IMG/VR virus record: IMGVR_UViG_3300045988_010311
Coordinates: 1-64,000 of that record
DNA: 64,000 nucleotides
From: a virus
Reading direction: 5' to 3' (one strand)
Shown: one piece after another, positions 36,839 through 58,804 of the stretch
Layout of the letters: every line of letters starts with the position of its first letter
Numbering within the stretch: the first letter of the stretch is position 1
The notes under the pieces: model-generated
The model's database searches: none
Seen by the model: the letters and a program-made list of their open reading frames with translations, nothing else
What the model was told of the DNA's origin: nothing
Program-made: the position numbers and the translations under genes

Positions 36839-37453
36839 TTATGCTCCCCTAAAGTACTTATATACCTTATTGTCACCACTCTTGTAGTCATCATCCTTAA
36901 ACCAGAAGTTGATTGCAGACTCAACTACTTTAGTGTCAATGTTATCACCAAACCATACTTTAAGTAGCTCACAGTAGTCATGGTACTGTGCATTGAGTGC
37001 TACATAAACATCAGCACAAGTTGCACTTTGTGGTATGATACCCCTGTATCTCTCAGCTACTTCCTTAGCTTTAGACATATCATACTTCTCACCTATAAAC
37101 TTTCTACCACCACTAGTATGGTACATCTGTGATACCAAGTACTTAGCAGTGCTCTCACTGAAGTGGTTACCCATATCACCATCTCCCTCAAGCATCATTC
37201 TGAACAGCCTATCCTTATCACTGGAGTCAAGCTCATCCATCATATCTACAAGTTGTGTATCACCATGTCTGTTAATATAGAAGTCATCATACATTTTGTC
37301 CTCAATGGGGTCACCCATAGAGTCTCTTCTCATACCTCTTCCTCTGACATACTTCTCAGGGCCAGAGACCTCTTTCATCTTCCTCATAAACTCTGAGTCA
37401 GTCATGCCGCTTCTCTTACTTCTAAGATATGCTCTCATCAAATACTCATTCAT
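36839..37453 (-). CDS. hypothetical protein (204 aa)
   Basis: ATG ORF and the last gene before the terminator. Confidence 0.55.
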   Translation of the reverse strand: MNEYLMRAYLRSKRSGMTDSEFMRKMKEVSGPEKYVRGRGMRRDSMGDPIEDKMYDDFYINRHGDTQLVDMMDELDSSDKDRLFRMMLEGDGDMGNHFSESTAKYLVSQMYHTSGGRKFIGEKYDMSKAKEVAERYRGIIPQSATCADVYVALNAQYHDYCELLKVWFGDNIDTKVVESAINFWFKDDDYKSGDNKVYKYFRGA

Positions 37454-37457
37454 ATCC

Positions 37458-37838
37458 TTACTGTTTTGAAGTTAATATTTCCCTTAATTCAACAAGGTCT
37501 CCCTCACTAAGAACTATACTCTTATCTGTAAATGGTATTCCCATCTCTATTCTGCCCCCTCCAATGAGTATATCACCCAGAGCAGGCACATTGATATGGA
37601 ATGGCTGGGTATTCATTAGAGATGCTGTCATCTCACTTATGATATTCTCAGCATCTATGTTACCACTCTCATCAGCTATTAGGTCCAGAACATTGGTAAT
37701 ACCTGACAGTTTCTTCTTTACTGCTCTGGAGACTATTGGTCTAAAGAAACTTATCACAGGATTGGTCTTAGCCATATTGCTCAGTTGTACCTCAACAAAG
37801 TACTGGAGCTTCTCTATCAACTGTATCTTGTCCATCAT
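37458..37838 (-). CDS. hypothetical protein (126 aa)
   Basis: ATG ORF overlapping the upstream gene by 4 nt. Confidence 0.5.
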   Translation of the reverse strand: MMDKIQLIEKLQYFVEVQLSNMAKTNPVISFFRPIVSRAVKKKLSGITNVLDLIADESGNIDAENIISEMTASLMNTQPFHINVPALGDILIGGGRIEMGIPFTDKSIVLSEGDLVELREILTSKQ

Positions 37839-38305
37839 AAGCTAGCTTTTATAAAATCCTCATATGTTACATCTGGGTGTTGCTTACTATATTCTCTGAA
37901 TCTATTAAACAGCTCCATCTCTCTATTAGTCTCATTGATAATCTTATTCTTTAGCTTTTTGACTATCTTCAACTGCTTTGACAGCAACTCCTTGCCCCTC
38001 TCAGTACTTTCAATTCTGCCCTTAACTAGGTTAAGAATCTCAGACTGGACTATATTCTGTAGGTCAGTATAAACCTCAGCGTACTCAGGGTCTTGAAGGA
38101 GTCTTGCTTTCTGCTCCTCTGTCATAGGTATAATCTCAGCATCAATCTCATCCCATATTAACTTTTGGGGCTGCTGCTGACCTTGCATCTGCCTAAGCTT
38201 GTTCCTATAGGCTTCCATCTTCCTTATCTGGGCATCCAGGTCATCAAGACCACTGCCCATCATAGGGTCACTTCCTAAAAATACTTGATTGATTGGGTAT
38301 GACAT
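37835..38305 (-). CDS. hypothetical coiled-coil protein (156 aa)
   Basis: ATG ORF with charged helical sequence. Confidence 0.5.
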   Translation of the reverse strand: MSYPINQVFLGSDPMMGSGLDDLDAQIRKMEAYRNKLRQMQGQQQPQKLIWDEIDAEIIPMTEEQKARLLQDPEYAEVYTDLQNIVQSEILNLVKGRIESTERGKELLSKQLKIVKKLKNKIINETNREMELFNRFREYSKQHPDVTYEDFIKASL

Positions 38306-38364
38306 AATAAACTCATTTAACAGTTAGAGTATATAAGGGGATAGTTGCCTACCCCCTATAATTC

Positions 38365-39231
38365 TTAATTATTATAATTACAAGACCCGCAACATCCACA
38401 TAAAGGATTACTTAAAGCTCTTTGTGTAGTAGCAGTACCTGTAGTAACATCAGCTATGGATACAGGGTAGAAATTACCATTCACATAATTGACTATCTTA
38501 TTGTCAGCGCAGCATCTTCTCTCAGCCTCAAGAGCTATACCAGCTTGAGCATTAGCAGCTACACCATTGATTCTCATATCAAGAACCTTAGCTCTCCAAG
38601 GCTCAACAGCATCAGCTACAGCTTGCTTAGTCTCTAAAGCACCAATCCTTGCAGAAAGTGCATCAAAATTATCTCTTTGACTCTTATATAGCCCAAAAGT
38701 ACTATCAGTAATCTTAGTATTGAGCAAATCAATACCGTCTCTTGTAGATTTATACAAGCCGAAATCAGCATCTACCTGAGACTTATAAAGATTAAAATCA
38801 GCATCAACTTGTGACTTCCAGAGCTGGAACTTCTCATTTACATCTACTTCTCTTGTAGCTCTTGCATTATCCATAGTGCTTACTTTAAGGCCCCACATCT
38901 CCTTAGTAAGAGCCAGCACATCATCACACTCCTTGTGCCAAGTTTGGAATGCAGTAGGACTAGATACTCCATTACCACTACTTAGACTAGTAGTGTTAAT
39001 GTTTACATTCTCAGGCATACCTGAATTACCAAACAGACCAATACCCATGCCATTTCTGCTAAGAGCTAGCAGACCAAGTGCTGTACCAGCAATTCCTAAA
39101 CCAAGTCCAGTACCAGCTACACCTTTAGATGCATAAGGAGCATTGTCATATCTATTATAACCACAATTATACTTATCGTGATAATAATTTACAGGAACCT
39201 CCTTTATAGTCTCTTTTTCAATAACTTCCAT
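38365..39231 (-). CDS. membrane-anchored repeat protein with Cys-rich C-terminus (288 aa)
   Basis: Has its own promoter and terminator-like flanks. Contains a Gly-rich TM segment (GVAGTGLGLGIAGTALGLLALS), tandem F-x-LYKSQ-VDAD repeats, and a C-terminal CGCCGSCNYNN. Confidence 0.6.
   Translation of the reverse strand: MEVIEKETIKEVPVNYYHDKYNCGYNRYDNAPYASKGVAGTGLGLGIAGTALGLLALSRNGMGIGLFGNSGMPENVNINTTSLSSGNGVSSPTAFQTWHKECDDVLALTKEMWGLKVSTMDNARATREVDVNEKFQLWKSQVDADFNLYKSQVDADFGLYKSTRDGIDLLNTKITDSTFGLYKSQRDNFDALSARIGALETKQAVADAVEPWRAKVLDMRINGVAANAQAGIALEAERRCCADNKIVNYVNGNFYPVSIADVTTGTATTQRALSNPLCGCCGSCNYNN
38656..38829 (-). repeat. in-frame tandem repeats (about 11-aa unit, four copies, the third carrying an 11-aa insertion) inside the 288-aa gene
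   Basis: The repeats read FQLWKSQVDAD / FNLYKSQVDAD / FGLYKSTRDG... / FGLYKSQRDNFDAL. Confidence 0.7.
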
Positions 39232-39282
39232 AGTTCTTGTTTTTTAAGTTAATTATATAATGTATTGTAAGCTTACATGTTG

Positions 39283-39290
39283 CAAAGGTA
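39283..39290 (-). promoter_or_regulatory. Bacteroidota-type -7 box (TACCTTTG + CA)
   Basis: The reverse complement of caaaggta matches the consensus. It lies 51 nt upstream of the ATG at 39231. Confidence 0.65.
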
Positions 39291-39374
39291 CTTAATAAAT
39301 GAATAAAAACACAACAATGCTAACACAGCAATGTACAAGTACTATAAAGTGTTTAATACCAAGCTATTAAAACG

Positions 39375-39404
39375 AAAAAGAGTTAGCACTTCAATGCTAA
39401 CTCT
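39375..39404 (-). terminator. intrinsic terminator after the HTH gene
   Basis: A perfect 10-bp stem AGAGTTAGCA/TGCTAACTCT with a 6-nt loop. TTTTT follows on the - strand. Confidence 0.8.
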
Positions 39405-39432
39405 TTATTGATGGTTTAATTTTCATAGATAA

Positions 39433-39732
39433 TCAGGGGGTATTTGCCTTTTTGATGCAATCATCTAAAGTCTTTTCCTCCCAGAATAACTCCTTGAAAC
39501 CTATAACTTTTTCTCCTCTAGGTATAATACCCTCCCTAACTAAATTATCAAAGGTAGCTCTGCTTACATTGAGCTTCTGGCATGCTTGATATTTACTTAG
39601 CCTTTTTGTCTTGTCTGTATATGATTTTATTACTTTGACTATTTCAATAGCCTCATCCTCTTTTATATTACTGTTACCAGCATCTATATCATCAATGATT
39701 TTCTCCAATAAGTCTCTTATAATCTTTAGCAT
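39433..39732 (-). CDS. helix-turn-helix DNA-binding protein (Xis/MerR-like HTH), 99 aa
   Basis: LSKYQACQKLNVSRATFDNLVREGIIP is a typical HTH. The gene ends an operon, with a terminator downstream. Confidence 0.55.
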   Translation of the reverse strand: MLKIIRDLLEKIIDDIDAGNSNIKEDEAIEIVKVIKSYTDKTKRLSKYQACQKLNVSRATFDNLVREGIIPRGEKVIGFKELFWEEKTLDDCIKKANTP

Positions 39733-40072
39733 GTTTATTGATAAGAATTAAAAGCATAATAAAACCAAAATATAAAGCACTTACTCTGACTTGTTCCAAA
39801 TGGTTACCAAACCCTATGTATCTCTGAATATAACTGCACCATAATATACCTATAGTGTAGAGACTGGAAACTATATGTATTAAACAGAACTTAAATACTC
39901 TAGACCATATTAATATCATTATACTTACCATTGTAAGTACAGCCAGTTCGGCAAAGCAATAATGAAATCCACACTCAAGAAAAACTACATGTAGAAACAT
40001 TAGAAAGGCACATATAACAGGTATGTATTTAAGTAATAAAATACACATCTTTTCAGCTCTACTTCTTCTCAT
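39692..40072 (-). CDS. polytopic membrane protein (about 4 TM), 126 aa
   Basis: Four hydrophobic stretches in a very AT-rich gene that overlaps the HTH gene by 41 nt. Confidence 0.5.
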   Translation of the reverse strand: MRRSRAEKMCILLLKYIPVICAFLMFLHVVFLECGFHYCFAELAVLTMVSIMILIWSRVFKFCLIHIVSSLYTIGILWCSYIQRYIGFGNHLEQVRVSALYFGFIMLLILINKHAKDYKRLIGENH

Positions 40073-40113
40073 AATATATTATTTTATAGAATTGTATATT
40101 TCAGTTAATTTAG

Positions 40114-41037
40114 CTATCTCTGGTGAATTTTTTTTGTATATCTAGTCCAGGATAAAGCAGGCTTTCCTGTGGGAGTTTCCCAATTATTTAATGCTGCATT
40201 CTTAGCAGAAAAAGGTAGTATCATCATAGTACCTTTACCATAACTACCATCGAGCACCTTGGTCAAATCATCAAAAGTTTTTATTGTTTTGGAAGAAGTA
40301 GTTTTACCTAATTCTTTATTATTTCTATCTACTATAAAAACAAATGTATAAAGAACGCTATTCTTGCCACTTGCAAGGGCTACATAATTTATAGCATCAA
40401 GATTAACTAATCTTATATAAGTAGTTCCTTTTATGCCTAATAATTCAATGAATCTTTTACGATTTTGTACAAAAGTAACGTTACTTAGACTTATTCCTCC
40501 CATATCCTCATTAAAGGATATATTATCACTTAAGTATGAAGTAATAGATATTGGGTAAAAAATAAAGGTACAATCTATATTACTATCATAATTATTACTA
40601 ATATTAAAATAATGAAACCCATGAATAAAGAAATGTAATGATTCTCTTACATTTGTTTTAGTGTTTGTTGCGTCTGAAAAATATGAAGCCCATGCACTAT
40701 CCCCAATATCAAAATTATCATTACTCTTTACAAACTCAGTAGAATTTAATATAACAGAATAAGTACTTGTAGTTCCATTAGGGTTGAAATTGTTTACTAT
40801 GCATTTACATTTACAAGGAAAAGGATTAAAAAAGCAGAAATTACACATATTTCCCTTCCTCTTTACATTAACAGAATAGCCATTAATATCATATTTGATA
40901 ATTTCCACACCTAACACATCATCTCCTAACCATGTTGTATCTGACTCCTGTGATATAGAACTAACTCTCTTTTTCTGAATATTAGTAAGCTTACTTGTAT
41001 CTCCTGTATAAGTAAGTTCTCTCTTAAATTGTCCCAT
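40114..41037 (-). CDS. hypothetical protein (307 aa), AT-rich accessory gene
   Basis: ATG ORF with about 25-27% GC by line counts, against about 40% in the core genes. Contains a Cys cluster (CNFCFFNPFPCKCKC). Confidence 0.5.
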   Translation of the reverse strand: MGQFKRELTYTGDTSKLTNIQKKRVSSISQESDTTWLGDDVLGVEIIKYDINGYSVNVKRKGNMCNFCFFNPFPCKCKCIVNNFNPNGTTSTYSVILNSTEFVKSNDNFDIGDSAWASYFSDATNTKTNVRESLHFFIHGFHYFNISNNYDSNIDCTFIFYPISITSYLSDNISFNEDMGGISLSNVTFVQNRKRFIELLGIKGTTYIRLVNLDAINYVALASGKNSVLYTFVFIVDRNNKELGKTTSSKTIKTFDDLTKVLDGSYGKGTMMILPFSAKNAALNNWETPTGKPALSWTRYTKKIHQR

Positions 41038-41070
41038 ATTATTATATTTTAATTATTTATTTCTCTGAAA

Positions 41071-41415
41071 TTAAACACTCTTTTCATTCTGTGCTTTTAA
41101 TAAATCAATACTGGTTTGCCTTAGCCTACAAGTAAGGTCTTTACAGGTTAATAACATAAGTTCAGATACCTGTTTTCTCAATTCCTTTATCTCACTTTCC
41201 AATTCATCATTTCTTTTCAGCAGACTATCAAGCCTGCCTTTATTGTCATCAGAAAGCTGCTTATAGAACTCTAAAGACTCCTTCATATTATGTATGACAT
41301 TCTCATCTACTTCACTATTATATTTCTTTCTAGTGAATAAATAAGATAGCCAACCGCTAGTTATGGAAGTGACTAATCCTATCACTCCTGTAATTATAAC
41401 CCCTAAGTCAATCAT
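41071..41415 (-). CDS. N-terminal TM plus coiled-coil protein (i-spanin-like or holin-like topology), 114 aa
   Basis: The TM segment is IDLGVIITGVIGLVTSITSGWLSYLF, followed by a heptad-like charged helix. Its start overlaps the upstream stop as ATGA. Confidence 0.5.
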   Translation of the reverse strand: MIDLGVIITGVIGLVTSITSGWLSYLFTRKKYNSEVDENVIHNMKESLEFYKQLSDDNKGRLDSLLKRNDELESEIKELRKQVSELMLLTCKDLTCRLRQTSIDLLKAQNEKSV

Positions 41416-42020
41416 TTGTAAAACTCAATAAATCTGTTATTACTCTCTTTTATATAAGGGTTCTTCTCCACCACATTAACTTCCATTACCCAATGTTTCT
41501 TCTGAAACCACCTACTGATAAAGAACTTCTTAGGAGGATTTATTGTTTCTTTCTTTCTACTTACAACTATATATTTCTCACTAATGAATGAAGGCTCTGT
41601 AATGATTCTGTTTGGATATTCCAAATCAAGCTTCATAGAATACCATTTATCTTCTATAATAGTATCTATTTTTATATTCTCTATAAATATAGTATCATTA
41701 AAGATTATAGTATCCCTCTTTTCTATTACAGAATTTATATAACTTAGTGATTTCAGCTTATTATCCTTTATATTCAATTCCTTCCTGACCTTATTCATTT
41801 CATTAAGAATAGAATCATTGAAATAATTAAGCTGGTCTATTGTAAGCTTTAAGACTCTATTTGATGTATTCAAGGAGTCCCTCATACCAAGAAGTATCTT
41901 TTGATTATTAGCTGTTATAGATATTTCTTCATTAAGTTTTATGCATTTCTTGCTTAATCCTATAGAACATATAATACCTAATAAAGCAATAATTCCTAAT
42001 ATCTGTGTACTCAGTTTCAT
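41412..42020 (-). CDS. signal-anchored/lipoprotein-like protein (202 aa)
   Basis: The N-terminus is MKLSTQILGIIALLGIICSIG. The promoter box lies only 8 nt upstream of the ATG, so the mRNA would be near-leaderless. Confidence 0.5.
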   Translation of the reverse strand: MKLSTQILGIIALLGIICSIGLSKKCIKLNEEISITANNQKILLGMRDSLNTSNRVLKLTIDQLNYFNDSILNEMNKVRKELNIKDNKLKSLSYINSVIEKRDTIIFNDTIFIENIKIDTIIEDKWYSMKLDLEYPNRIITEPSFISEKYIVVSRKKETINPPKKFFISRWFQKKHWVMEVNVVEKNPYIKESNNRFIEFYK

Positions 42021-42028
42021 TATCCTTG

Positions 42029-42036
42029 CAAAGATA
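42029..42036 (-). promoter_or_regulatory. Bacteroidota-type -7 box (TATCTTTG + CA)
   Basis: The reverse complement of caaagata matches the consensus. It lies 8 nt upstream of the ATG at 42020. Confidence 0.6.
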
Positions 42037-42087
42037 TATAAAATAAATCACTCATGCAATAGCATAAGTTGTTTAATTATGATGTGC

Positions 42088-42666
42088 TTATAAGAAATCT
42101 ACAAATGTAAATTCCTCATCATTGAACTTATGTGGCCTCTTGTAGAGTCTGTCCCACAGCCAGGGGATAGGAAGATAGGTATGCCAGCTTCTACCATCAA
42201 GAGGAAGAAAACCTTGAATACCTCCACTATATTCTTTATCTGCATATTGTATCTTGATATAATCTACTTTAGTACTTACTTTAGTAGCATATTTTGTACA
42301 TATACTACCATATATAATATTATCAAAATGCAATCTCCAAGAAGTTACTTTGGCACTGAATTTTTCTACATCCTTACATACTCCTTCATATGTTATACAT
42401 ACTTCACACCTATCCTTAAATTCATTTATTTGATTAAGTATTGATGCAGCACTTCTTTTTGATTTCCATAATCCATGAGCACAGACATATAGATGTCTTC
42501 TTTTATCCCATCTCACTCTAATATCAAAAGACCTGCAACCAGCATCATACTGCTGTTTTATAGTCTTACTTTGTGTCTTGGCAAAAGGTAATACCAACAA
42601 AGAAATCAAGCCGTGAGAGGCTTCTCCTGTGGCACTATCATGTGTTGCAATTTTTAACTTACTCAT
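42088..42666 (-). CDS. PI-PLC X-domain-like phosphodiesterase (PLC-like TIM-barrel superfamily), short form, 192 aa
   Basis: IATHDSATGE...KTQSKTIKQQYDAGCRSFDIRVRW...YVCAHGLW parallels Bacillus PI-PLC IPGTHDSGT...TQ...QMDHGARIFDIRGR...LHHG. The ATG at 42666 overlaps the upstream stop as ATGA; the track TTG start at 42684 is less likely. Confidence 0.6.
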   Translation of the reverse strand: MSKLKIATHDSATGEASHGLISLLVLPFAKTQSKTIKQQYDAGCRSFDIRVRWDKRRHLYVCAHGLWKSKRSAASILNQINEFKDRCEVCITYEGVCKDVEKFSAKVTSWRLHFDNIIYGSICTKYATKVSTKVDYIKIQYADKEYSGGIQGFLPLDGRSWHTYLPIPWLWDRLYKRPHKFNDEEFTFVDFL

Positions 42667-42968
42667 ACAAGAAGAACATAACAAAGATAACCAATAGTAT
42701 TAACTATAGCAGGCACAAATCCACCTAAAGTTGTAGCAATAACATCATCCCAACCGACAACTTCATCAATATTCTCTTTAACTACTCCACTAATGAATGC
42801 AACAACAGCACCTACAGCAGACATAATAACAAACATCAATATAGCCCCACCAGCAGTCATTGCAAAAATATTAGTAACTGCGAATGAAATATTAGCACCT
42901 ACATTAAAATGAACAAGTAGGTCACTTCTTTTCATAAGTCTATTAAAGAAAGCTCTAATCTTTTTCAT
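42663..42968 (-). CDS. small 3-TM membrane protein (holin-like candidate), 101 aa
   Basis: Has three hydrophobic segments and is translationally coupled (ATGA) to the PLC-like gene. Confidence 0.5.
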   Translation of the reverse strand: MKKIRAFFNRLMKRSDLLVHFNVGANISFAVTNIFAMTAGGAILMFVIMSAVGAVVAFISGVVKENIDEVVGWDDVIATTLGGFVPAIVNTIGYLCYVLLV

Positions 42969-42983
42969 AGTTTAATCTATTAT

Positions 42984-45209
42984 TTAATTATTAACTACTT
43001 TCTCAGTATCACCCATAAACAAAGTCCAACCTTTAGCTTTAGCAGCAGTTACTTGTGCATCAGTTATAATATCTTTACTTAATACGGTAATCGTAACTGG
43101 AGTTACAACAGTACCACTATCAGCAACAAGACTATACAACTTGATTGCCCAAGTAGGAGTAAGATTAGTCAATGTGTAAGTACCATTCTGTGTTATCTTT
43201 GTAGCAATAGTTGCATATGTACCACTACCAATACCAACAACAATATTTTCAGTAATACCTTCAACTTTTATTTTCATTTCTTTTACACTCTTTGTAGTAG
43301 TATAGAAATTAGAAGAAGTAGCTGTCTTATTAATCAATGTGGTAAGAGTAATCTTTGTAGCAGTAGCAGAATCTCCAGATTGTCCCTTAGTCAAATCCTT
43401 TGTAAAATCTATAGGATATTCCCAACCATAAGGATAATGCAGTTCAGCAGTTCTAACTTCACTAATAGCATGTTCATCATCACTACTTGTAACAGTTAAA
43501 TCAGAAAGATTGTCGATAAGGTAGTTAATACTATCTGCATCCAAAGCAGAAAGATTACCTTGAATAACACCATTGATTGCTTTCTCAGTAAAATCCCAAG
43601 AACCATGATTAAGATTCTTCAATCTCAAATCAGTAAGAGCAGTACATCCTCCAAAGATAAGATAAGCCGAAGAAGGCTTTACATATCTAAAATCAAGTAT
43701 TGGGCCAATCTTAGTAAGAGCTTTACATTGATTGAATACTTGAGGAGCATAGTCAGTAAAGGTCAATACATTTGTTTTGGCATCTCTTGTAGCACCATAC
43801 TGAGGAAGTTCTGGAAGTCTATAACAATATTCAAAAGCAAAACCAACATTAGAACATGGTGCTTTGAATGTAACAACAGTGACATTTCCACTTGCATCAG
43901 TACTATTAAAACTCCGATTACCATCACTCCAATTTATCTTAGGAAGTTTAAGAAGATTACCACAAAACTCAAAAGCACCACTAAGGTCTTGTGACCTTGC
44001 TGCATTCTCAAATTCAACTTCTCTGAGATTACCAGCTCTATAAAATAGCTCATGTAAAGAAGTAACAGTACCTGTATTTATAATAACTTTCTCAATGTTA
44101 CTATCAGCAAATTCAGCAACTCCACTTATATTTGCTTCATCAATATTAAGAGTAACTGTACCATCAATGTCAGAAGCATAGAATAAACCTTTGGTTCTAT
44201 TAGAGATATTAGTAAATGTTTGACTAATAGTATGAGTAGCAAACCATTCCTTTACTTTAGCAGCAACTTCTTTATTATTAAGAATACCATTAAATCTTTG
44301 AAATGTAACTTTTCCATCAGCAGCTTTACTATAGAAATCACTATCTTTATATACATCAAGAGTAGGAAGTTTCTTAGTTCCATCAAGACCTACAAATGAT
44401 TTAGCAATCAGTTTACCTTCTTTGCCAATAGTTTCAGTAGTAATAAGATTATAAGCATCCCAAGCATTCTCTTTAGTCTTATTCTCATGGTAAAGAACAT
44501 CACTTCCATGATATACAGTCCAGCATCTTACAGTAGAAGGGTCAACAGGTTTGTCAACTTCCTTTGTGTGAATACTGAGACCATGTACATTTGCATATAC
44601 ATTAGTAAGAAGCTTTCTTATACCCTCAAGAGTTTTTTGAGCAGCAGGTGGCTCTATATAACAAGCTATGTGATTGTTACCTACTTTATTGATAGTAATA
44701 GTCCTTTTATCACTACTAACAGTATATTCACTCCCACTACTTGCAGTAAAAGTACAATTATCAAACCTATCATCCAAGAATGTAATAGTAACAGGATTAT
44801 CTCCTAAATCAATAGCTTGTTCTGTATTACTAAAGAAAGCTACAGCAATTCTCCAAGAACCATCAGGCCAACCATTACTAGGAAATTTAGTATTCATTCC
44901 TTTGGTTATGTTCTTGTTATATCCATCTTGGATATAACCCCACCTATGTGCACCATCATTTATATCTTTAAGAGCACCACTAGGAACACCTAAATCCCAA
45001 GGCCACCAATACATGTATGTACTACAAGGAGCAAGCCAAAGACCATGAACATAATGTCCTCCAGCATCATTGGCATACTTATAATAACTCCATAAAGCAT
45101 CTCCATGCTTCCCCGTAATAGGAGAAGCAAAGAGAAGCTTATTTACAGAATTAGCACCAATATGTATTTTATTCACATTATCCATTGATATAGTATATTG
45201 TGTTAGCAT
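42984..45209 (-). CDS. tail fibre/receptor-binding protein with BspA-type leucine-rich repeats (741 aa)
   Basis: Repeats of the form (A/V/I)F-x2-C-x2-L: LFYRAGNLREV, AFEFCGNLLKLP, AFEYCYRLPELP, VFNQCKALTKIG, IFGGCTALTDLRL (nt ~43530-44190). It is the last gene of the fibre cluster. Confidence 0.55.
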   Translation of the reverse strand: MLTQYTISMDNVNKIHIGANSVNKLLFASPITGKHGDALWSYYKYANDAGGHYVHGLWLAPCSTYMYWWPWDLGVPSGALKDINDGAHRWGYIQDGYNKNITKGMNTKFPSNGWPDGSWRIAVAFFSNTEQAIDLGDNPVTITFLDDRFDNCTFTASSGSEYTVSSDKRTITINKVGNNHIACYIEPPAAQKTLEGIRKLLTNVYANVHGLSIHTKEVDKPVDPSTVRCWTVYHGSDVLYHENKTKENAWDAYNLITTETIGKEGKLIAKSFVGLDGTKKLPTLDVYKDSDFYSKAADGKVTFQRFNGILNNKEVAAKVKEWFATHTISQTFTNISNRTKGLFYASDIDGTVTLNIDEANISGVAEFADSNIEKVIINTGTVTSLHELFYRAGNLREVEFENAARSQDLSGAFEFCGNLLKLPKINWSDGNRSFNSTDASGNVTVVTFKAPCSNVGFAFEYCYRLPELPQYGATRDAKTNVLTFTDYAPQVFNQCKALTKIGPILDFRYVKPSSAYLIFGGCTALTDLRLKNLNHGSWDFTEKAINGVIQGNLSALDADSINYLIDNLSDLTVTSSDDEHAISEVRTAELHYPYGWEYPIDFTKDLTKGQSGDSATATKITLTTLINKTATSSNFYTTTKSVKEMKIKVEGITENIVVGIGSGTYATIATKITQNGTYTLTNLTPTWAIKLYSLVADSGTVVTPVTITVLSKDIITDAQVTAAKAKGWTLFMGDTEKVVNN

Positions 45210-46167
45210 CTTTAGTTGTCAAAGCATCATAAGCAGCTTGAGTAATAAACACAGTCTTAGGCATTGCATTGACTTTATTTCTTAAATCAACAAAATCAGT
45301 CTGAGTAGATTCAAGAGAACTATGTAAATCAGTAATATTATTATTGATAGTAGTAATCTCAGCTCTAGTGCCATATTTACTACTTAAATCTGGTATGTCA
45401 GTAATATCAATAACTCTAAATTCAGGGTCTCCAGCAGCATCTTTAGGAGTTGCATAGAAAAGATTTTTATTACCATATCCAATATCCCTAATTTCAACAG
45501 CACCTTCAGGAAGTTCAGCAGCAACTTCCATATTCAAAGTAGGTAAAACAGTATATTGTCCAGACATAGCTACAATTCTACCATATACTGTATCAAACCT
45601 CTCGTTCTTATAAAAAATTATAACTTTATAATTATTCTCAACGCTATTATCAATATAATAATATACCTTTTCAGTATCTTTATTGATATTATTTGAATTT
45701 TTTTTAGCATCAACAGTAATAAAGTTATTAGTTCCTGCAGCTCTAATTCTAATATCTACATTATATGATGAATATCTACATCTGATGTCAATAGTAACAG
45801 TTACAGTTTGCCAAGCTCTTATCGGTACAGGAATTGTTGCAACTTTTACATTGCTATCACCTGCATAAACATTTTTTCCATGAATATCAACCTTCTTATC
45901 CAAGTCAGCAGCAACACTATCTTTAGTAGCATAAGCAGATAAATCAACATCTGCCTTAAATACTCTCCACTTACCAATAACAGCATCAACACTATTAGAA
46001 GACTTGAACTGATATGTATTCCCATCCTCTGCACAGTAAGACAAATGTCCATCGTCAATACTTGTCTCTGGAAAAGCCTTCATAGCAGCTTTTGTAGCAA
46101 ACCTATCTCTTTCAAAGTTTGGCTGTTCTCCTTGAAAGGTAAAATTTGAGCCAATTTTAATTGCCAT
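45178..46167 (-). CDS. tail fibre protein (329 aa), shares its N-terminal module with the 411-aa fibre
   Basis: MAIKIGSNFTFQGEQPNFERDRFATKAAMKAF...HLSYCAEDGNTYQFKS aligns with the first ~75 aa of the neighbouring gene. Confidence 0.6.
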   Translation of the reverse strand: MAIKIGSNFTFQGEQPNFERDRFATKAAMKAFPETSIDDGHLSYCAEDGNTYQFKSSNSVDAVIGKWRVFKADVDLSAYATKDSVAADLDKKVDIHGKNVYAGDSNVKVATIPVPIRAWQTVTVTIDIRCRYSSYNVDIRIRAAGTNNFITVDAKKNSNNINKDTEKVYYYIDNSVENNYKVIIFYKNERFDTVYGRIVAMSGQYTVLPTLNMEVAAELPEGAVEIRDIGYGNKNLFYATPKDAAGDPEFRVIDITDIPDLSSKYGTRAEITTINNNITDLHSSLESTQTDFVDLRNKVNAMPKTVFITQAAYDALTTKDANTIYYING

Positions 46168-56363: not shown

Positions 56364-56381
56364 GTTTCTAACTATTTATAG

Positions 56382-56454
56382 TTTCGGGAGTAGGACTCGA
56401 ACCTACAACCTCCAGCTTATGAGGCTGGTTAGCTACCATTGCTAGCATCCCGAG
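56382..56454 (-). tRNA. tRNA-Met or Ile2 (anticodon CAT)
   Basis: By-eye cloverleaf: T-arm GTAGG-TTCGAGT-CCTAC and anticodon arm CCAGC-CTCATAA-GCTGG. The acceptor register is ambiguous by 1 nt, with a possible C1xA72 mismatch. Confidence 0.8.
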
Positions 56455-56631
56455 ATATTGCCAAGGTTTGGTATGGTACTTGGCATTGTAAGGTTAACCT
56501 TATACTTACACCCCCAATCATCTACACCTATAAAGCTGTTATTATAACAGGCCAGCTCCTGTTTGAGGCTTACCTAGTAGCATTGGGTGTTACTCTCTCT
56601 CTGTAGGTAAAACAGTTTCAGTAACTTGTAG

Positions 56632-56705
56632 AGCCTCCCCTCAGAATCGAACTGAGACTCCCTGTTTACAAGGCAGGTTTGCTAAACCATTAACACTAAG
56701 GAGGC
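56632..56705 (-). tRNA. tRNA-Thr (TGT)
   Basis: Acceptor GCCTCCT/GGGAGGC, T-arm CTCAG-TTCGATT-CTGAG, anticodon loop CTTGTAA. Confidence 0.8.
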
Positions 56706-56709
56706 ATAG

Positions 56710-56792
56710 TACCCCTGACAGGAGTTGAACCTGCAATCCCCAAGGGGCGTTGGTGTTTAAGACCAATGTGTATTCCATTCCACCACAGGGGC
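56710..56792 (-). tRNA. tRNA-Leu (TAA), type II
   Basis: Acceptor GCCCCTG/CAGGGGT, anticodon arm TTGGT-CTTAAAC-ACCAA, and a long variable arm. Confidence 0.85.
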
Positions 56793-56799
56793 ATTATAC

Positions 56800-57252
56800 T
56801 TAGTAAGGTCTCAAATCACATAACTCAAAGAGGTACTTGTATTTCAGTATATTATGTATGAATGTCTCACACTCGGACCTAATACCCGCATATAAAGTTC
56901 CTTCTGGGATATTCTCATAGAACTTAGTAGTTCCTGCCTTGACCTCATTGATGAAGTCAATAGCATTAAGAGCATCACTAGGAGTACCTTTAATCACATT
57001 AGGTTGCATATGTCCAAGCAATCCCTGATATTCCTCTGCCAATCCATCCTGATAGTCTGAGATAATACCTAGGAACTCATCTAGGTAAACATGAATATTC
57101 TTCTTAGGGGCTGCCCAATGCAGATTCTTACACTTAGTCTTCCAACCCTCCAGAAGGTTAATGAAGCTAATGAAGAATTGACTAGGGTTCTCATCTTGAG
57201 AAGGCTTGAACATCTCATCCATTAGCTGATTATCTAGAAAAACACTATCCAT
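56800..57252 (-). CDS. Dps/ferritin-like four-helix-bundle protein (150 aa)
   Basis: KNLHWAAPKKNIHVYLDEF...DYQDGLAEEYQGLLG parallels E. coli Dps [21 protein letters not shown]...LDTMAERAVQLGG, which carries the H, H, D, E ferroxidase ligands. It has its own promoter. Confidence 0.6.
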   Translation of the reverse strand: MDSVFLDNQLMDEMFKPSQDENPSQFFISFINLLEGWKTKCKNLHWAAPKKNIHVYLDEFLGIISDYQDGLAEEYQGLLGHMQPNVIKGTPSDALNAIDFINEVKAGTTKFYENIPEGTLYAGIRSECETFIHNILKYKYLFELCDLRPY

Positions 57253-57277
57253 TTCTCTTATTCTTTATTTGATACTG

Positions 57278-57285
57278 CAAAGTTA
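57278..57285 (-). promoter_or_regulatory. Bacteroidota-type -7 box (TAACTTTG + CA)
   Basis: The reverse complement of caaagtta matches the consensus. It lies 25 nt upstream of the ATG at 57252. Confidence 0.65.
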
Positions 57286-57338
57286 AGCTAAATATTTAAC
57301 CTGTGCAAGTAAATTACATTATTTAACTAAATTATCTG

Positions 57339-57421
57339 TACCCTCCAAGGGACTTGAACCCTTATGTACTTAGTACACTAGTTTCTAAGACTAGCCTGTA
57401 TACCCATTCCAGCAGGAGGGT
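57339..57421 (-). tRNA. tRNA-Leu (TAG), type II
   Basis: Acceptor ACCCTCC/GGAGGGT, anticodon arm CTAGT-CTTAGAA-ACTAG, long variable arm, T-loop TTCAAGT. Confidence 0.85.
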
Positions 57422-57431
57422 GTAAGCTCTC

Positions 57432-57845
57432 TTATAGAGAGCTATATTCTTTTGTAGCATCAAAGCTAGGGCAAGCTTTTGAGCTAAAGTCTCTGTGCCC
57501 ATGTATAGATGCTTGAGGGTACTTAGTCTTTAACTCCTTAAGTAACTTAACTAATGACTGCTTCTGCTGAGCAGTCCTAGTATCTTTAGGTGTCTTACCA
57601 TCAGAAGCACATCCTCCTATATAGCATACTCCAATAGAGTTAGCATTATGGCCAGCGCAGTGTGCACCTATAATAGACTCATATCTACCTGTATGTATAG
57701 AACCATCTCTATATATTACATAATGATAGCCTATATCAGAGAAGCCCCTTTGAAGGTGCCACTGTCTTATAGTATCTACACTATAGTCTTTACCTTCTGG
57801 TGTAGCACTACAATGTACTATTATTTCATTTATTTTTCTTGCCAT
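57432..57845 (-). CDS. N-acetylmuramoyl-L-alanine amidase, T7-lysozyme/PGRP (Amidase_2) type endolysin, 137 aa
   Basis: IIVHCSATPEG...IRQWHLQRGFSDIGYHYVI.RDGS...GAH..GHNANSIGVCYIGG...HGHRDF..KACPSFD aligns along its whole length with T7 gp3.5. The track GTG start at 57878 overlaps tRNA-Lys, so the ATG at 57845 is preferred. Confidence 0.92.
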   Translation of the reverse strand: MARKINEIIVHCSATPEGKDYSVDTIRQWHLQRGFSDIGYHYVIYRDGSIHTGRYESIIGAHCAGHNANSIGVCYIGGCASDGKTPKDTRTAQQKQSLVKLLKELKTKYPQASIHGHRDFSSKACPSFDATKEYSSL

Positions 57846-57869
57846 ACATATATTATAAAACTTATCATG

Positions 57870-57942
57870 TTCCCCCACTAGGAGTCGAACCTAGCTCTCA
57901 GGATTAAAAGTCCAGAGCATCCACCATCAATGCTTTGAGGGA
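57870..57942 (-). tRNA. tRNA-Lys (TTT)
   Basis: Acceptor TCCCTCA/TGGGGGA, T-arm CTAGG-TTCGACT-CCTAG, anticodon loop CTTTTAA. Confidence 0.8.
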
Positions 57943-58014
57943 GTGAAGCAGGGTCTTTTTAAGAGGTTTCATCTTATTCCTAGGAAAGATTTTTACCCTG
58001 CACACCCTCTAGTG

Positions 58015-58088
58015 TGCCTCCACAAGGACTTGAACCTTGAGTCCCCTGCTTAAGGGGCAGGTGCTTTAACCAATTCAGCTATAGAGGC
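58015..58088 (-). tRNA. tRNA-Lys (CTT), with unusual C at position 33
   Basis: Acceptor GCCTCTA/TGGAGGC. The anticodon arm CCTGC-CCCTTAA-GCAGG has a perfect stem, and the loop register gives anticodon CTT. Confidence 0.65.
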
Positions 58089-58094
58089 TTATAG

Positions 58095-58169
58095 ACTTGG
58101 AGGTGGGATTTGAACCCACGAATCACCAGTTTTGCAGACTGTGCCCTTAGACCACTCAGGTACTCCAAG
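58095..58169 (-). tRNA. tRNA-Cys (GCA)
   Basis: Acceptor CTTGGAG/CTCCAAG with a T73 discriminator, anticodon loop CTGCAAA, T-arm GTGGG-TTCAAAT-CCCAC. Confidence 0.8.
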
Positions 58170-58173
58170 ATAG

Positions 58174-58250
58174 TACTGGCAGAGGGACTTGAACCCCCAT
58201 GTGACCAATTACCCTTTCTAGACTGTATAAGAGTCAGGGGATATACCAGT
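58174..58250 (-). tRNA. atypical tRNA-like element (possible tRNA-Ile TAT lacking a canonical D-arm, or a pseudo-tRNA)
   Basis: Good acceptor (ACTGGTA/TGCCAGT) and T-arm (GGGGG-TTCAAGT-CCCTC). The only well-formed 7-nt loop hairpin is GACT-CTTATAC-AGTC, placed about 11 nt too close to the 5' end. Confidence 0.35.
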
Positions 58251-58257
58251 ATGCTGG

Positions 58258-58331
58258 GGTGTCTGATGGGAGTTGAACCCACACTACTTGGAGCCACAAT
58301 CCAAGGCTCTGACCAATTAAGCTACAGACAC
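58258..58331 (-). tRNA. tRNA-His (GTG)
   Basis: Acceptor GTGTCTG/CAGACAC with a C73 discriminator, D-arm GCTT-AATTGGTCA-GAGC, anticodon arm TTGGA-TTGTGGC-TCCAA. Confidence 0.85.
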
Positions 58332-58332
58332 A

Positions 58333-58406
58333 GTTCTGATGAGTGGACTCGAACCACTAGCTACTGCCTTATGAGAGCAGCTTTCTACCATTGAAATACA
58401 TCAGAA
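58333..58406 (-). tRNA. tRNA-Met or Ile2 (CAT), second copy
   Basis: Acceptor TTCTGAT/ATCAGAA, anticodon loop CTCATAA, T-arm AGTGG-TTCGAGT-CCACT. Confidence 0.8.
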
Positions 58407-58411
58407 TATAG

Positions 58412-58483
58412 TTGGCATACATGGAATTGAACCATGATTACTACCTTATCAGAGTAGCTTCCTAACCATTAGAAGATATGCCA
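58412..58483 (-). tRNA. tRNA-Ile (GAT)
   Basis: Acceptor TGGCATA/TATGCCA, anticodon loop CTGATAA, T-arm CATGG-TTCAATT-CCATG. Confidence 0.85.
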
Positions 58484-58489
58484 ATATAG

Positions 58490-58562
58490 CTAAGGTGGCA
58501 GGACTCGAACCTACAACTGCTGGTTTTGGAGACCAGTGTTCTACCTATTGAAATACACCTTA
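58490..58562 (-). tRNA. tRNA-Trp (CCA)
   Basis: Acceptor TAAGGTG/CACCTTA with a G73 discriminator, and anticodon arm CTGGT-CTCCAAA-ACCAG. Confidence 0.85.
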
Positions 58563-58567
58563 ATATG

Positions 58568-58642: not shown

Positions 58643-58648
58643 ATATGT

Positions 58649-58720: not shown

Positions 58721-58804
58721 ATTGATAGGGTAGTTTCTTTAACCTCTAACTACCAAAAGAGGGTTCTGACAAAAGCTCAACATTATGAAACACGGAAACT
58801 AATG

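What the first reader, a model, noticed from the sequence alone, without database searches (positions are those of the whole stretch)
42088..42968. Phage-encoded PI-PLC-like phosphodiesterase translationally coupled to a 3-TM holin-like protein
Seen in sequence:
- The 192-aa ORF reads KIATHDSATGE...FAKTQSKTIKQQYDAGCRSFDIRVRWDKRRHLYVCAHGLW.
- Its ATG (42666-42664) overlaps the TGA of the upstream 101-aa three-TM gene as ATGA.

Established knowledge: bacterial PI-specific phospholipase C has the same ordered motifs (GTHDS with the catalytic His, TQ, Q..D.G.R.FDIR with the catalytic Arg, and HHG with the second His) in the N-terminal half of its TIM barrel.

Inference:
- This is a truncated PLC-like enzyme co-expressed with a small membrane protein, with further membrane proteins downstream.
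- The only recognisable endolysin, the amidase at 57432, lies 15 kb away.
- One hypothesis is a non-canonical lysis or envelope-remodelling module that attacks phospho-inositol or phosphodiester-linked envelope components. Bacteroides make inositol lipids and phosphodiester-linked capsules.
- I do not know of a characterised phage PI-PLC of this type.
Basis: partly seen in the sequence, partly recalled or inferred. Interest (0 to 1): 0.7.

Follow-up and report, generated by a model that had tools for sequence, protein, structure and literature searches.

The report
Miniature PI-PLC-like enzyme in crAss-like phage
A gut crAss-like phage carries a small, uncharacterised enzyme related to bacterial phosphatidylinositol-specific phospholipase C, paired with a tiny membrane protein; in many other phages the same enzyme sits beside cell-bursting (lysis) genes, so it may be a lipid-cutting helper of lysis in Bacteroides phages, although this is untested.

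Summary
A 192-aa ORF (42088-42666, minus strand) starts in an ATGA overlap with the stop of a 101-aa membrane-protein ORF (42663-42968).

It is a real PI-PLC-type phosphodiesterase:
- A family profile matches only bacterial PI-PLCs in the PDB (Listeria 1e-10, S. aureus 4e-9, B. cereus 1e-7).
- hhalign maps H9/D10/D48/R50/H64 onto B. cereus His32/Asp33/Asp67/Arg69/His82.
- These residues are kept in 230-237 of 238 full-length relatives.
- A pLDDT-93 model finds bacterial PI-PLCs as its top 22 PDB matches.

It is not truncated. It belongs to a large, unannotated family of about 190-aa mini-barrels (872 clusters at 50% identity), found mainly in gut phages.

The window phage is a close relative of crAss001. 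The TM+PLC pair is an accessory insert between its tail-fibre genes and the gp27/gp28 homologues, which crAss001 annotates as lysis regulator/holin.

In 11 of 29 lineages the PLC gene lies within 2.2 kb of endolysins, Phage_holin_4-like genes or homologues of the 101-aa TM protein.

Best reading (about 45%): an accessory lysis enzyme that attacks a phosphodiester-linked membrane lipid, by analogy with mycobacteriophage LysB. Substrate, location and timing are untested. I rate it a new variant of a known kind.

The parts
42088..42666 (-). Gene for the 192-aa miniature PI-PLC-like phosphodiesterase. It has no signal peptide or TM segment. Catalytic candidates are H9, D10, D48, R50, H64, E94 and D190.
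42663..42968 (-). Gene for a 101-aa small membrane protein with 2-3 TM segments and the motifs D16xxxH20, K64-E65-x-x-D68 and D75. It is VanZ-like and a putative holin-like partner.
42663..42666 (-). ATGA stop/start overlap between the TM gene and the PLC-like gene.
   Evidence: sequence read directly.
42050..42069 (-). Terminator-like hairpin followed by a T-run, just after the PLC stop codon. It is conserved with the element upstream of crAss001 gp27 and marks the 3' boundary of the TM+PLC insert.
   Evidence: folding z = -3.8.
41412..42020 (-). 202-aa protein with an N-terminal TM anchor. Homologue of crAss001 gp27, annotated 'lysis regulatory protein'.
   Evidence: phrog_14010; 47% identity, E=7e-59.
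41071..41415 (-). 114-aa protein with an N-terminal TM segment and a coiled coil. Homologue of crAss001 gp28, annotated 'lysis regulatory protein/holin'.
   Evidence: phrog_6664; 60% identity, E=2e-38.
42984..45209 (-). 741-aa ORF at the 3' end of the variable module between the portal gene and the gp27 homologue, the position held by tail-fibre/tailspike genes gp22-26 in crAss001. The TM+PLC pair follows it directly. This is context only.
   Evidence: only weak LRR_5/TMP_3 hits; no crAss001 homologue.
57432..57878 (-). N-acetylmuramoyl-L-alanine amidase endolysin inside the tRNA array, 15 kb from the PLC gene. This is context only.
   Evidence: phrog_822, E=7.7e-63.

Best explanation
The 192-aa protein is an active, metal-independent phosphodiesterase of the bacterial PI-PLC type, reduced to a mini TIM-barrel of about 190 aa. 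The inferred mechanism is two-His general acid/base catalysis, with an Arg stabilising the phosphate.

It is made late, at the 3' end of the tail-fibre transcription unit, together with a small VanZ-like membrane protein. It has no export signal, so it should accumulate in the cytoplasm.

I propose that it is an accessory lysis enzyme. Once the membrane is permeabilised by its TM partner and/or the gp27/gp28 homologues, it would reach a phosphodiester-linked envelope lipid and cleave off the head-group. The most plausible substrates are the phosphatidylinositol or phosphoinositol-dihydroceramide lipids of Bacteroidales membranes. This would weaken the membrane and help release, in the way LysB helps mycobacteriophages or spanins help other Gram-negative phages.

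Shown here: the fold, the homology, the conserved catalytic residues, the gene arrangement and the recurrent linkage to lysis genes.

Inferred only: enzymatic activity, substrate, location, timing and any effect on lysis.
For: Identity:
- The single sequence gives Pfam PI-PLC-X at E=0.0016. 22 of 49 diverse members hit PF00388.
- The family profile matches only bacterial PI-PLCs in the PDB, at 1e-10 to 4e-6.
- hhalign against B. cereus PI-PLC gives probability 95% and E=3e-8. It aligns THDS, FDIR and HG exactly. The reference sequence was verified identical to 1gym.
- The AF2 model has pLDDT 93.5 and pTM 0.90. Its top 22 PDB matches are bacterial PI-PLCs at probability 0.98-1.0.
- Among 238 full-length relatives: H9 237, D48 237, R50 230, H64 232, E94 231, and D190 in all 230 that are not gapped there.

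Lysis link:
- L008: Phage_holin_4-like gene, PLC, Amidase_3 endolysin, then a lipobox plus C-terminal-TM spanin-like gene.
- L060: PLC directly followed by a GH24 endolysin.
- L041, L052 and L073: PLC followed by a GH108 endolysin.
- L040 and L045: PLC, Phage_holin_4_1 (24.9 bits, above the gathering score), GH108, small TM protein, spanin-like gene.
- 11 of 29 lineages have an endolysin, a holin4-like gene or a homologue of the small TM protein within 2.2 kb.
- The window's TM partner is homologous to those small TM proteins.
- The window's next two genes are homologues of crAss001 gp27/gp28, annotated as lysis regulators/holin.
- Cellular homologues carry an N-terminal membrane anchor, which points to action at or beyond the membrane.
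- Bacteroides make PI and inositol sphingolipids (PMC9246714).
Against: - No experiment of any kind bears on the function.
- In 16-18 of 29 lineages no lysis gene was seen nearby. Some copies sit among DNA polymerase, terminase, dUTPase or tRNA nucleotidyltransferase genes.
- The junction between tail fibres and the lysis cassette is a classic site for accessory 'moron' genes, so adjacency could be positional rather than functional.
- Phages with the PLC gene also keep spanin-like genes, so it does not replace them.
- crAss001 and the closer relatives cr106_1 and cr112_1 lack the gene, so it is dispensable.
- The inositol-binding residues of B. cereus PI-PLC are not recoverable. Lys115 aligns to Thr92, and the C-terminal half does not align by sequence.
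- Asp33 is Asn in 104 of 238 members.
- A few distant relatives lie in contigs binned to Firmicutes, which are not known for inositol lipids.
- A cytoplasmic lipase made before lysis would need some way to avoid damaging the inner leaflet early.
Confidence: 0.45

Rival explanations
1. It is an envelope-remodelling accessory gene that is not a lysis factor. The enzyme would strip or alter a phosphodiester-linked surface structure of the infected cell, such as a capsule lipid anchor, a phosphorylated glycan or an inositol-lipid head-group. The effect would be to block superinfection, or to destroy receptors on debris so that progeny are not trapped.
For: - The TM+PLC pair is an accessory insert in the variable receptor-binding region and is absent from crAss001.
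- In the L038-L057 lineage the gene sits among tail-fibre-like genes and next to a family-2 glycosyltransferase.
- In L032-L034 it follows a flotillin-like and NfeD-like membrane protein pair, assigned by eye.
- Loss of inositol lipids alters capsule expression in B. thetaiotaomicron (PMC9246714).
- crAss001 infection depends on phase-variable capsule (PMC8375218 abstract; PMC10136315).
Against: - Most copies have no export signal, so access to the surface still needs a membrane lesion.
- The repeated direct adjacency to endolysin and holin genes is more specific than expected for a generic accessory gene.
- Nothing matched in PADLOC.
Confidence: 0.2
2. It is a virion-associated entry enzyme. 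The small phosphodiesterase would be carried on or in the tail, or ejected with the DNA, and would locally cleave membrane or capsule phosphodiesters during infection. This would resemble the tail-borne glycerophosphodiesterases of phages that infect Gram-positive bacteria.
For: - It is encoded directly after the last ORF of the tail-fibre module, upstream of a terminator-like hairpin, so it is probably co-transcribed with tail genes.
- In L061 it overlaps the preceding 598-aa fibre-like gene by 4 nt.
- Foldseek finds large tail GDPD proteins of actinophages, but only weakly (probability 0.5-0.6).
Against: - There is no tail-attachment or fibre domain. The whole 192 aa is the catalytic barrel.
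- It pairs with an integral membrane protein, which is unlikely to be in a virion.
- Many copies lie far from structural genes.
- It matches PI-PLC, not GDPD.
- No cultured phage has it, so no virion proteome argues for it.
Confidence: 0.12
3. It is a cytoplasmic phosphodiesterase acting on a soluble substrate. It would use the two-His, RNase-A-like chemistry on cyclic or linear nucleotide signals (anti-defence), on RNA, or on glycerophosphodiesters or inositol phosphates (phosphate scavenging).
For: - There is no signal peptide.
- In several lineages the gene lies among replication and nucleotide-metabolism genes such as DNA polymerase, dUTPase, RNase H and tRNA nucleotidyltransferase.
- The substrate-binding half of the barrel is unlike known PI-PLCs.
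Against: - To my knowledge no PLC-like barrel is known to act in anti-defence.
- No PADLOC or NCBIfam family matched.
- Cellular homologues are membrane-anchored.
- The enrichment beside holins, endolysins and small TM proteins is unexplained by this reading.
- The conserved aromatic P-I-P-W-L-W segment, which looks amphipathic, suggests an interfacial enzyme. This last point is inference only.
Confidence: 0.1

Closest known systems
Bacterial phosphatidylinositol-specific phospholipase C (B. cereus/thuringiensis, L. monocytogenes PlcA, S. aureus Plc; Pfam PF00388 PI-PLC-X; PLC-like phosphodiesterase TIM-barrel superfamily)
   Same: - The N-terminal ~120 residues are homologous (profile E=1e-10; hhalign probability 95%).
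- The catalytic motifs come in the same order: T-H-D (His32/Asp33), F-D-I-R (Asp67/Arg69), H-G (His82) and a Glu matching Glu117.
- Arg is kept in place of the Ca2+ site of eukaryotic PLCs, which implies metal-independent chemistry.
- An invariant Asp on the last strand may correspond to Asp274.
- These proteins are the best structural matches in the PDB.
   Different: - It is 192 aa against about 300 aa, with fewer helices.
- The C-terminal half does not align by sequence.
- Lys115 aligns to Thr, and equivalents of Arg163 and Asp198 were not identified.
- Asp33 is Asn in about 44% of the family.
- It has no secretion signal.
- It is phage-encoded and paired with a small TM protein.
- The single sequence scores below the Pfam gathering score (18.5 against 23.1 bits).
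Mycobacteriophage LysB (lipolytic accessory lysis enzyme)
   Same: This is a functional analogy only. LysB is an accessory lipid-directed hydrolase encoded in or next to the lysis cassette, alongside a holin and a peptidoglycan hydrolase. It is present in many but not all related phages and is thought to finish off the outer lipid layer.
   Different: - LysB is an alpha/beta-hydrolase esterase that cleaves the mycolyl-arabinogalactan ester bond.
- The fold, chemistry and host envelope are all unrelated.
- A lysis role for the protein studied here is inferred, not shown.
Tail-associated glycerophosphodiester phosphodiesterase (GDPD) domains of phages that infect Gram-positive bacteria
   Same: Both belong to the PLC-like phosphodiesterase superfamily. 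Both are phage-encoded enzymes aimed at phosphodiester-linked envelope polymers.
   Different: - Those are metal-dependent GDPD domains embedded in tail proteins of about 700-800 aa.
- Here there is no GDPD Pfam hit, the Foldseek matches to GDPD are weaker (E >= 0.04), and the protein is free-standing at 192 aa without a tail domain.
VanZ-like small membrane proteins (PF04892) and DUF3943, for the 101-aa partner
   Same: The D-x-x-x-H and K-E-x-x-D...D motifs are shared, and relatives of the partner give weak Pfam hits (E=5e-4 to 1e-3).
   Different: - It is much shorter than VanZ, and all hits fall below the gathering score.
- It matches no recognised holin family.
- The holin role is inferred from the position of homologues between endolysin and spanin-like genes.

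Membership tests
Bacterial PI-PLC / Pfam PF00388 (PI-PLC-X) | Sequence match to the family model at the curated threshold | tested here: inconclusive
   The window protein scores 18.5 bits (E=0.0016) against a gathering score of 23.1. 22 of 49 diverse relatives match at E<0.01, the best at 8e-7. The family profile matches PDB PI-PLCs at 1e-10. Homology at superfamily level is secure, but curated-threshold membership is not met by the single sequence.
Bacterial PI-PLC | General-base His (B. cereus His32) in a T-H-D motif after strand 1 | tested here: met
   hhalign aligns T8-H9-D10-S11 with T31-H32-D33-S34. H9 is present in 237 of 238 relatives.
Bacterial PI-PLC | Phosphate-stabilising Arg (Arg69) in F-D-I-R, in place of the Ca2+ site of eukaryotic PLC | tested here: met
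   F47-D48-I49-R50 aligns with F66-D67-I68-R69. D48 is present in 237 of 238 and R50 in 230 of 238.
Bacterial PI-PLC | General-acid His (His82) in an H-G motif | tested here: met
   A63-H64-G65 aligns with H81-H82-G83. H64 is present in 232 of 238.
Bacterial PI-PLC | Asp274 on the last strand, hydrogen-bonded to His32 | tested here: inconclusive
   D190, in V-D-F-L on the predicted last strand (E187-189), is present in all 230 sequences not gapped there.
Bacterial PI-PLC | Inositol-binding residues (Lys115, Arg163, Asp198) and a barrel of about 300 aa | tested here: not met
   Lys115 aligns to Thr92. The HMM alignment stops at about residue 120. Length is 192 aa across the family. Query-normalised TM-score to PI-PLCs is only 0.44-0.55.
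Bacterial PI-PLC | Secreted enzyme with an N-terminal signal peptide | tested here: not met
   The catalytic His is at residue 9 and no hydrophobic N-terminal segment exists. Only rare cellular relatives carry an N-terminal TM anchor.
Bacterial PI-PLC | Cleaves PI or GPI to diacylglycerol plus cyclic inositol phosphate | not testable with these tools
   This needs an enzyme assay.
Glycerophosphodiester phosphodiesterase (GDPD, PF03009) | Match to the GDPD model or fold as the best hit | tested here: not met
   No GDPD Pfam hit was found in the window protein or in 49 relatives. GDPD structures rank below all PI-PLCs (E >= 0.04).
Holin (for the 101-aa partner) | Small protein with at least one TM segment | tested here: met
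   Two strong hydrophobic segments and one weaker one.
Holin (for the 101-aa partner) | Encoded beside the endolysin in a lysis cassette | tested here: inconclusive
   In the window the amidase is 15 kb away. Homologues (hhalign 94%) lie between GH108 endolysin and spanin-like genes in the L039/L040/L045 lineage.
Holin (for the 101-aa partner) | Match to a described holin family | tested here: not met
   No holin family matched in Pfam, PHROGs or NCBIfam. There are only weak VanZ/DUF3943 hits for relatives.
Phage lysis-cassette accessory enzyme (LysB-like role) | Recurrent genomic linkage to holin, endolysin or spanin genes | tested here: inconclusive
   A lysis-type neighbour lies within 2.2 kb in 11 of 29 lineages, and an endolysin or holin4-like gene is directly adjacent in 5. 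This is enriched over a rough 2-3% expectation for direct adjacency, but it is absent in most lineages.

The most novel reading that the evidence does not exclude
The protein represents a new class of phage lysis effector for Gram-negative Bacteroidota. It would be a miniaturised, metal-independent PI-PLC-type lipid phosphodiesterase, released or activated by a VanZ-like mini-holin. It would cleave inositol phospho- or sphingolipids of the host membrane to complete envelope rupture. If so, this would be the first lipid head-group-cleaving lysis enzyme of a Gram-negative phage that I know of, and the first phage function tied to bacterial inositol lipids.
Probability: 0.25. Interest if true: 0.8.

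Novelty: new variant of a known kind. Interest (0 to 1): 0.6.

Why it matters
**Open question addressed.** How crAss-like and other Bacteroidales phages breach the host envelope is poorly understood. Reviews mention only predicted spanins and lysins (PMC10136315).

**A missing annotation.** This work defines a large phage protein family: at least 872 clusters at 50% identity. It has no hit in PHROGs or NCBIfam and no precomputed Pfam domain. It turns out to be a compact PI-PLC-type enzyme with an intact active site, repeatedly placed in lysis cassettes.

**If it cleaves Bacteroides inositol lipids or another envelope phosphodiester:**
- It would add a lipid-directed step to Gram-negative phage lysis.
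- It would link phage biology to the inositol sphingolipids that affect capsule and host fitness in Bacteroides (PMC9246714).
- It would provide a very small PLC scaffold for enzymology.

**If it proves to be a surface-remodelling accessory gene instead,** it is still a candidate factor in the interplay between crAss-like phages and the Bacteroides capsule.

Tried and rejected
- **Nucleotide match.** A megablast of 40000-46000 against GenBank phages found nothing. Identity had to be worked out at protein level.
- **Family libraries.** PHROGs, NCBIfam and PADLOC gave no hit for the PLC-like protein.
- **First structural model.** The AF2 model built from 30 close homologues was poor in the C-terminal third (pLDDT 79.5). 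I replaced it with a model from 49 diverse representatives (pLDDT 93.5).
- **TM-anchored phage variants.** The apparent 228-aa variants in L010 and L030 are most likely artefacts of my longest-ORF rule. Only the cellular relatives P0154 and P0169 have convincing N-terminal anchors.
- **Promoter motif.** The Bacteroides -7 motif TAnnTTTG was scanned for upstream of genes. It occurs 64 times against 35 expected on the minus strand, but it does not mark gene starts consistently, so I did not use it. The sigma-70 scan was no better than shuffles.
- **Spanin in the window.** No convincing unimolecular-spanin architecture (lipobox plus C-terminal TM) was found in the window.
- **Literature.** Searches for crAss or phage together with PI-PLC, phospholipase, PLC-like phosphodiesterase or lysis cassette returned nothing on this family.
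- **'Truncated half-barrel'.** Rejected. Family length is uniform, the C-terminus is conserved, and the model has pTM 0.90 with about eight strands.
- **GDPD membership.** Rejected.
Full report
**1. Observation**

The minus strand of 42088-42968 holds two tightly packed ORFs.
- The 101-aa ORF (42663-42968) ends ...GTA TGA.
- The 192-aa ORF begins at the ATG embedded in that stop (ATGA, 42666-42663) and runs to 42088.
- The mechanical ORF list extends the second ORF to a TTG at 42684. Homologues begin within one to three residues of the ATG, so the ATG is the start.
- The quoted peptide strings are present.
- Four-base overlaps also occur at four or more other gene junctions in this window. The overlap shows tight packing, not a special coupling.
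- The 101-aa protein has two strong hydrophobic segments (41-59, 83-101) and a weaker one near 20-38.

**2. What genome this is**

- No nucleotide match exists in GenBank phages.
- The major capsid protein is 86.5% identical to that of Bacteroides phage crAss001 and 90.7% identical to that of cr106_1.
- Terminase and portal are 81% identical to crAss001 gp19 and gp20.
- The window is therefore a Kehishuvirus-like crassvirus (Steigviridae).
- Gene order on the minus strand is:
  - a tRNA array with the amidase endolysin (57432-57878; phrog_822, E=8e-63) and a Dps-like gene;
  - TerL;
  - portal;
  - four large ORFs in the position of the crAss001 tail-fibre genes gp22-26;
  - the 101-aa TM gene;
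  - the PLC-like gene;
  - the 202-aa and 114-aa genes;
  - further genes, then the major capsid protein.

**3. Identity of the 192-aa protein**

- Alone, it hits Pfam PI-PLC-X weakly (E=0.0016; 18.5 bits against a gathering score of 23.1). It hits nothing in PHROGs, NCBIfam or PADLOC.
- It belongs to a large family.
  - The 5.8-billion-protein collection holds 616 relatives, all about 190 aa and none with a precomputed Pfam domain.
  - A profile search finds 872 clusters at 50% identity with E <= 1e-3, nearly all full-length ones 175-200 aa.
- A profile of 49 diverse members (alignment A2, 29-48% identical to the query) matches the PDB significantly only at bacterial PI-PLCs. The values are Listeria 1.1e-10, S. 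aureus 4e-9 and B. cereus 1.2e-7.
- 22 of those 49 members individually hit PF00388.
- hhalign of A2 against B. cereus PI-PLC gives probability 95% and E=3e-8. The residue correspondences are:

| Window protein | B. cereus PI-PLC |
|---|---|
| T8-H9-D10-S11 | T31-H32-D33-S34 |
| F47-D48-I49-R50 | F66-D67-I68-R69 |
| H64-G65 | H82-G83 |
| T92 | K115 (hence E94 = E117) |

- By established knowledge of B. cereus PI-PLC, His32 is the general base, His82 the general acid, Arg69 the phosphate-stabilising residue, and Asp33 and Asp274 their partners.
- Conservation across 238 full-length relatives:
  - H9 in 237.
  - D48 in 237.
  - R50 in 230.
  - H64 in 232.
  - E94 in 231.
  - K125 in 227.
  - D190 in all 230 sequences not gapped at that position.
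  - Position 10 is Asp in 132 and Asn in 104.
- An AF2 model built on A2 is confident (pLDDT 93.5, pTM 0.90).
  - Its strands fall at 6-8, 44-54, 59-64/67-72, 87-96, 117-126, 138-141, about 150 and 187-189.
  - It has only four longer helices.
- Foldseek places bacterial PI-PLCs in the top 22 PDB ranks (probability 0.98-1.0, E from 3.5e-5).
  - Up to about 150-170 columns align at rmsd 5-6 A.
  - Query-normalised TM-scores are 0.44-0.55.
  - Eukaryotic PLC X-domains and GDPDs rank lower.
- In BFVD the best match is an uncharacterised 195-aa protein of crAss-like phage cr128_1 (TM-score 0.72). PI-PLC and GP-PDE proteins of giant viruses follow.

Conclusion for this section: the protein is a real member of the PLC-like phosphodiesterase superfamily and sits closest to the metal-independent bacterial PI-PLCs. 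Its catalytic set is intact. It is a miniaturised complete domain, not a truncation. The C-terminal third, with G-G-x-Q-G-F, P-I-P-W-L-W and V-D-F-L, is specific to the family and cannot be aligned to known PI-PLCs. The substrate pocket therefore cannot be read off.

**4. Local context**

- The 202-aa and 114-aa proteins downstream are homologues of crAss001 gp27 (47% identity, E=7e-59) and gp28 (60% identity, E=2e-38).
- The crAss001 record annotates these as 'lysis regulatory protein' and 'lysis regulatory protein/holin'. Both window proteins have an N-terminal TM segment.
- crAss001 has no TM+PLC pair. Its last tail gene, gp26, is followed directly by a hairpin plus T-run and then gp27.
- The same element is conserved in the window just after the PLC stop codon, with pair-preserving changes and a folding z-score of -3.8.
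- The TM+PLC pair is therefore an accessory two-gene insert at the 3' end of the variable tail-fibre module. It lies immediately upstream of the boundary to the predicted lysis genes.
- Of GenBank phage genomes, only cr85_1, cr118_1, ctcc615 and bajarodcaudo virus 1 carry a homologue, and all are uncultured. In bajarodcaudo virus 1 the gene is labelled 'PI-PLCc protein'. No paper on this family was found.

**5. Context elsewhere**

I examined 64 IMG/VR loci and 7 genome-collection loci. Contigs range from 2 to 353 kb, so the family is not confined to crassviruses. Clear cases of linkage to lysis genes are:

| Locus or lineage | Gene order |
|---|---|
| L008 | Phage_holin_4-like, PLC, Amidase_3 endolysin (phrog_435, 2e-38), lipobox plus C-terminal-TM protein (unimolecular-spanin architecture) |
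| L060 | PLC, GH24 endolysin (phrog_7, 2e-57), HExxH membrane protein |
| L041, L052, L073 | PLC, GH108 endolysin |
| L040, L045 | PLC, Phage_holin_4_1 (24.9 bits, above the gathering score), GH108, 86-aa TM protein, spanin-like gene |
| L044 | PLC, 99-aa TM protein, then Amidase_2 about 2 kb further on |
| L054-L056, L072 | small TM protein, spanin-like gene, PLC |

- After clustering the PLC proteins at 70% identity there are 29 lineages.
  - 7 have a recognised peptidoglycan hydrolase within 2.2 kb.
  - 11 have an endolysin, a holin4-like gene or a relative of the small TM protein within 2.2 kb.
  - 5 have an endolysin or holin4-like gene directly adjacent.
- My rough expectation for direct adjacency is 2-3%. 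This is an estimate, not a computed null, and the lineages are not fully independent.
- The remaining lineages show other neighbours: DNA polymerase, terminase, dUTPase, RNase H and tRNA nucleotidyltransferase.
- The association with lysis genes is therefore enriched but not universal.

**6. The membrane partner**

- The 101-aa protein has only close relatives (24 proteins, at least 85% identical).
- Its profile nevertheless matches the small TM proteins listed above (hhalign probability 94%, E=1.4e-7).
- They share the motifs D-x-x-x-H, K-E-x-x-D and a later Asp.
- Members give weak VanZ and DUF3943 Pfam hits (E=5e-4 to 1e-3).
- The position of these proteins between GH108 endolysin and spanin-like genes is the evidence for a holin-like role. 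No described holin family matches.

**7. Location**

- The phage protein has no signal peptide, and the catalytic His is at residue 9.
- Two cellular relatives (P0154, P0169) carry a positively charged N-terminus followed by a TM anchor.
- P0154 sits in a bacterial-looking contig next to acetolactate decarboxylase and CesT-family genes.
- This suggests that the family acts at or outside the cytoplasmic membrane.
- The apparent TM extensions on some phage copies are probably artefacts of ORF calling.

**8. Mechanism proposed**

- Inferred chemistry: the conserved His/Arg/His set implies PI-PLC-type catalysis. A hydroxyl next to the phosphodiester is activated by His9, which is held by Asp190. 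Arg50 stabilises the phosphate. His64, paired with Asp or Asn at position 10, protonates the leaving group.
- This chemistry needs a head-group with a vicinal OH, such as inositol or glycerol.
- Inferred role: the enzyme accumulates late in the cytoplasm. It gains access to its lipid substrate when the TM partner and/or the gp27/gp28 homologues permeabilise the membrane. Head-group removal then destabilises the envelope and aids release.
- The closest functional analogy is mycobacteriophage LysB.
- I put about 0.9 on 'active PI-PLC-type phosphodiesterase' and about 0.45 on the lysis-accessory role. The specific inositol-lipid substrate is less likely than that.
- The rival readings are:
  - surface remodelling, receptor destruction or superinfection exclusion (0.2);
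  - a virion-borne entry enzyme (0.12);
  - a cytoplasmic phosphodiesterase on soluble substrates (0.1).

**9. Novelty and verdict**

- The fold and chemistry are known.
- What is new is the miniature format, the size of the family, its absence from annotation libraries, its phage setting and its recurrent placement with lysis genes and a VanZ-like mini membrane protein.
- I rate it a new variant of a known kind, with interest 0.6.
It is wrong on 'truncated', and substrate and role remain untested.

Noticed in passing
L010-L014, L062, L066 (e.g. L010:5576-5977) and L060:6034-6864; also cr85_1 MT774390.1 1083-1484: A membrane protein with an HExxH motif (phrog_15610, labelled 'protease', E=2e-35 for the L060 copy) follows the PLC gene with a 4-nt overlap in cr85_1-like crassviruses. 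In L060 it follows the GH24 endolysin. It may be a metalloprotease-like component of Bacteroides-phage lysis cassettes.
   Followed up: partly
L008:6465-7040, L039:8018-8512, L054:4474-4905: These proteins have an N-terminal lipobox (LCSC, LVSC, LSSC) and a C-terminal TM segment, which is the architecture of unimolecular spanins. They sit at the end of the lysis cassettes of several gut phages. No PHROG annotation covers them.
   Followed up: partly
window 42030-42085 (minus strand) and crAss001 MH675552.1 about 25020-25090: A hairpin plus T-run followed by TTTGCA is conserved between the window and crAss001, just upstream of the gp27 homologue, with pair-preserving substitutions. It is probably a terminator/promoter boundary between the tail-fibre and gp27/gp28 units.
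   Followed up: partly
window 56381-59332 and 63690-63776: There is an array of 18 tRNA genes on the minus strand, with the amidase endolysin and a Dps-like gene embedded in it. ARAGORN also calls one odd tRNA-like gene with an unassignable anticodon at 63690-63776 on the plus strand.
   Followed up: no
window 36839-41037 against crAss001 gp29-gp30: Between the gp28 homologue and the gp31 homologue the window carries seven ORFs: 307, 126 (three TM segments), 99, 288, 156, 126 and 204 aa. None is similar to crAss001 gp29 or to gp30 (L,D-carboxypeptidase). This is a second variable island next to the predicted lysis genes. A strong 13-bp hairpin terminator lies at 39377-39406.
   Followed up: partly
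L032-L034 (e.g. L032:1961-4389): In one phage lineage, a 162-aa protein with two TM segments (NfeD-like by eye) and a 642-aa flotillin/SPFH-like membrane protein lie just upstream of the PLC-like gene.
   Followed up: no
L068:2641-4762 (ENA metagenome scaffold): A cellular relative of the PLC-like family has an N-terminal TM anchor (P0154, 227 aa). It overlaps an acetolactate decarboxylase gene by 4 nt and precedes a CesT-family chaperone gene, in a contig of ordinary metabolic genes. The organism was not identified.
   Followed up: partly
L006:3263-4558: A 431-aa ORF looks by eye like a reverse transcriptase (it contains YMDD). It lies two ORFs upstream of the TM+PLC pair in a 63-kb phage contig and may belong to a diversity-generating retroelement near the tail genes.
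   Followed up: no
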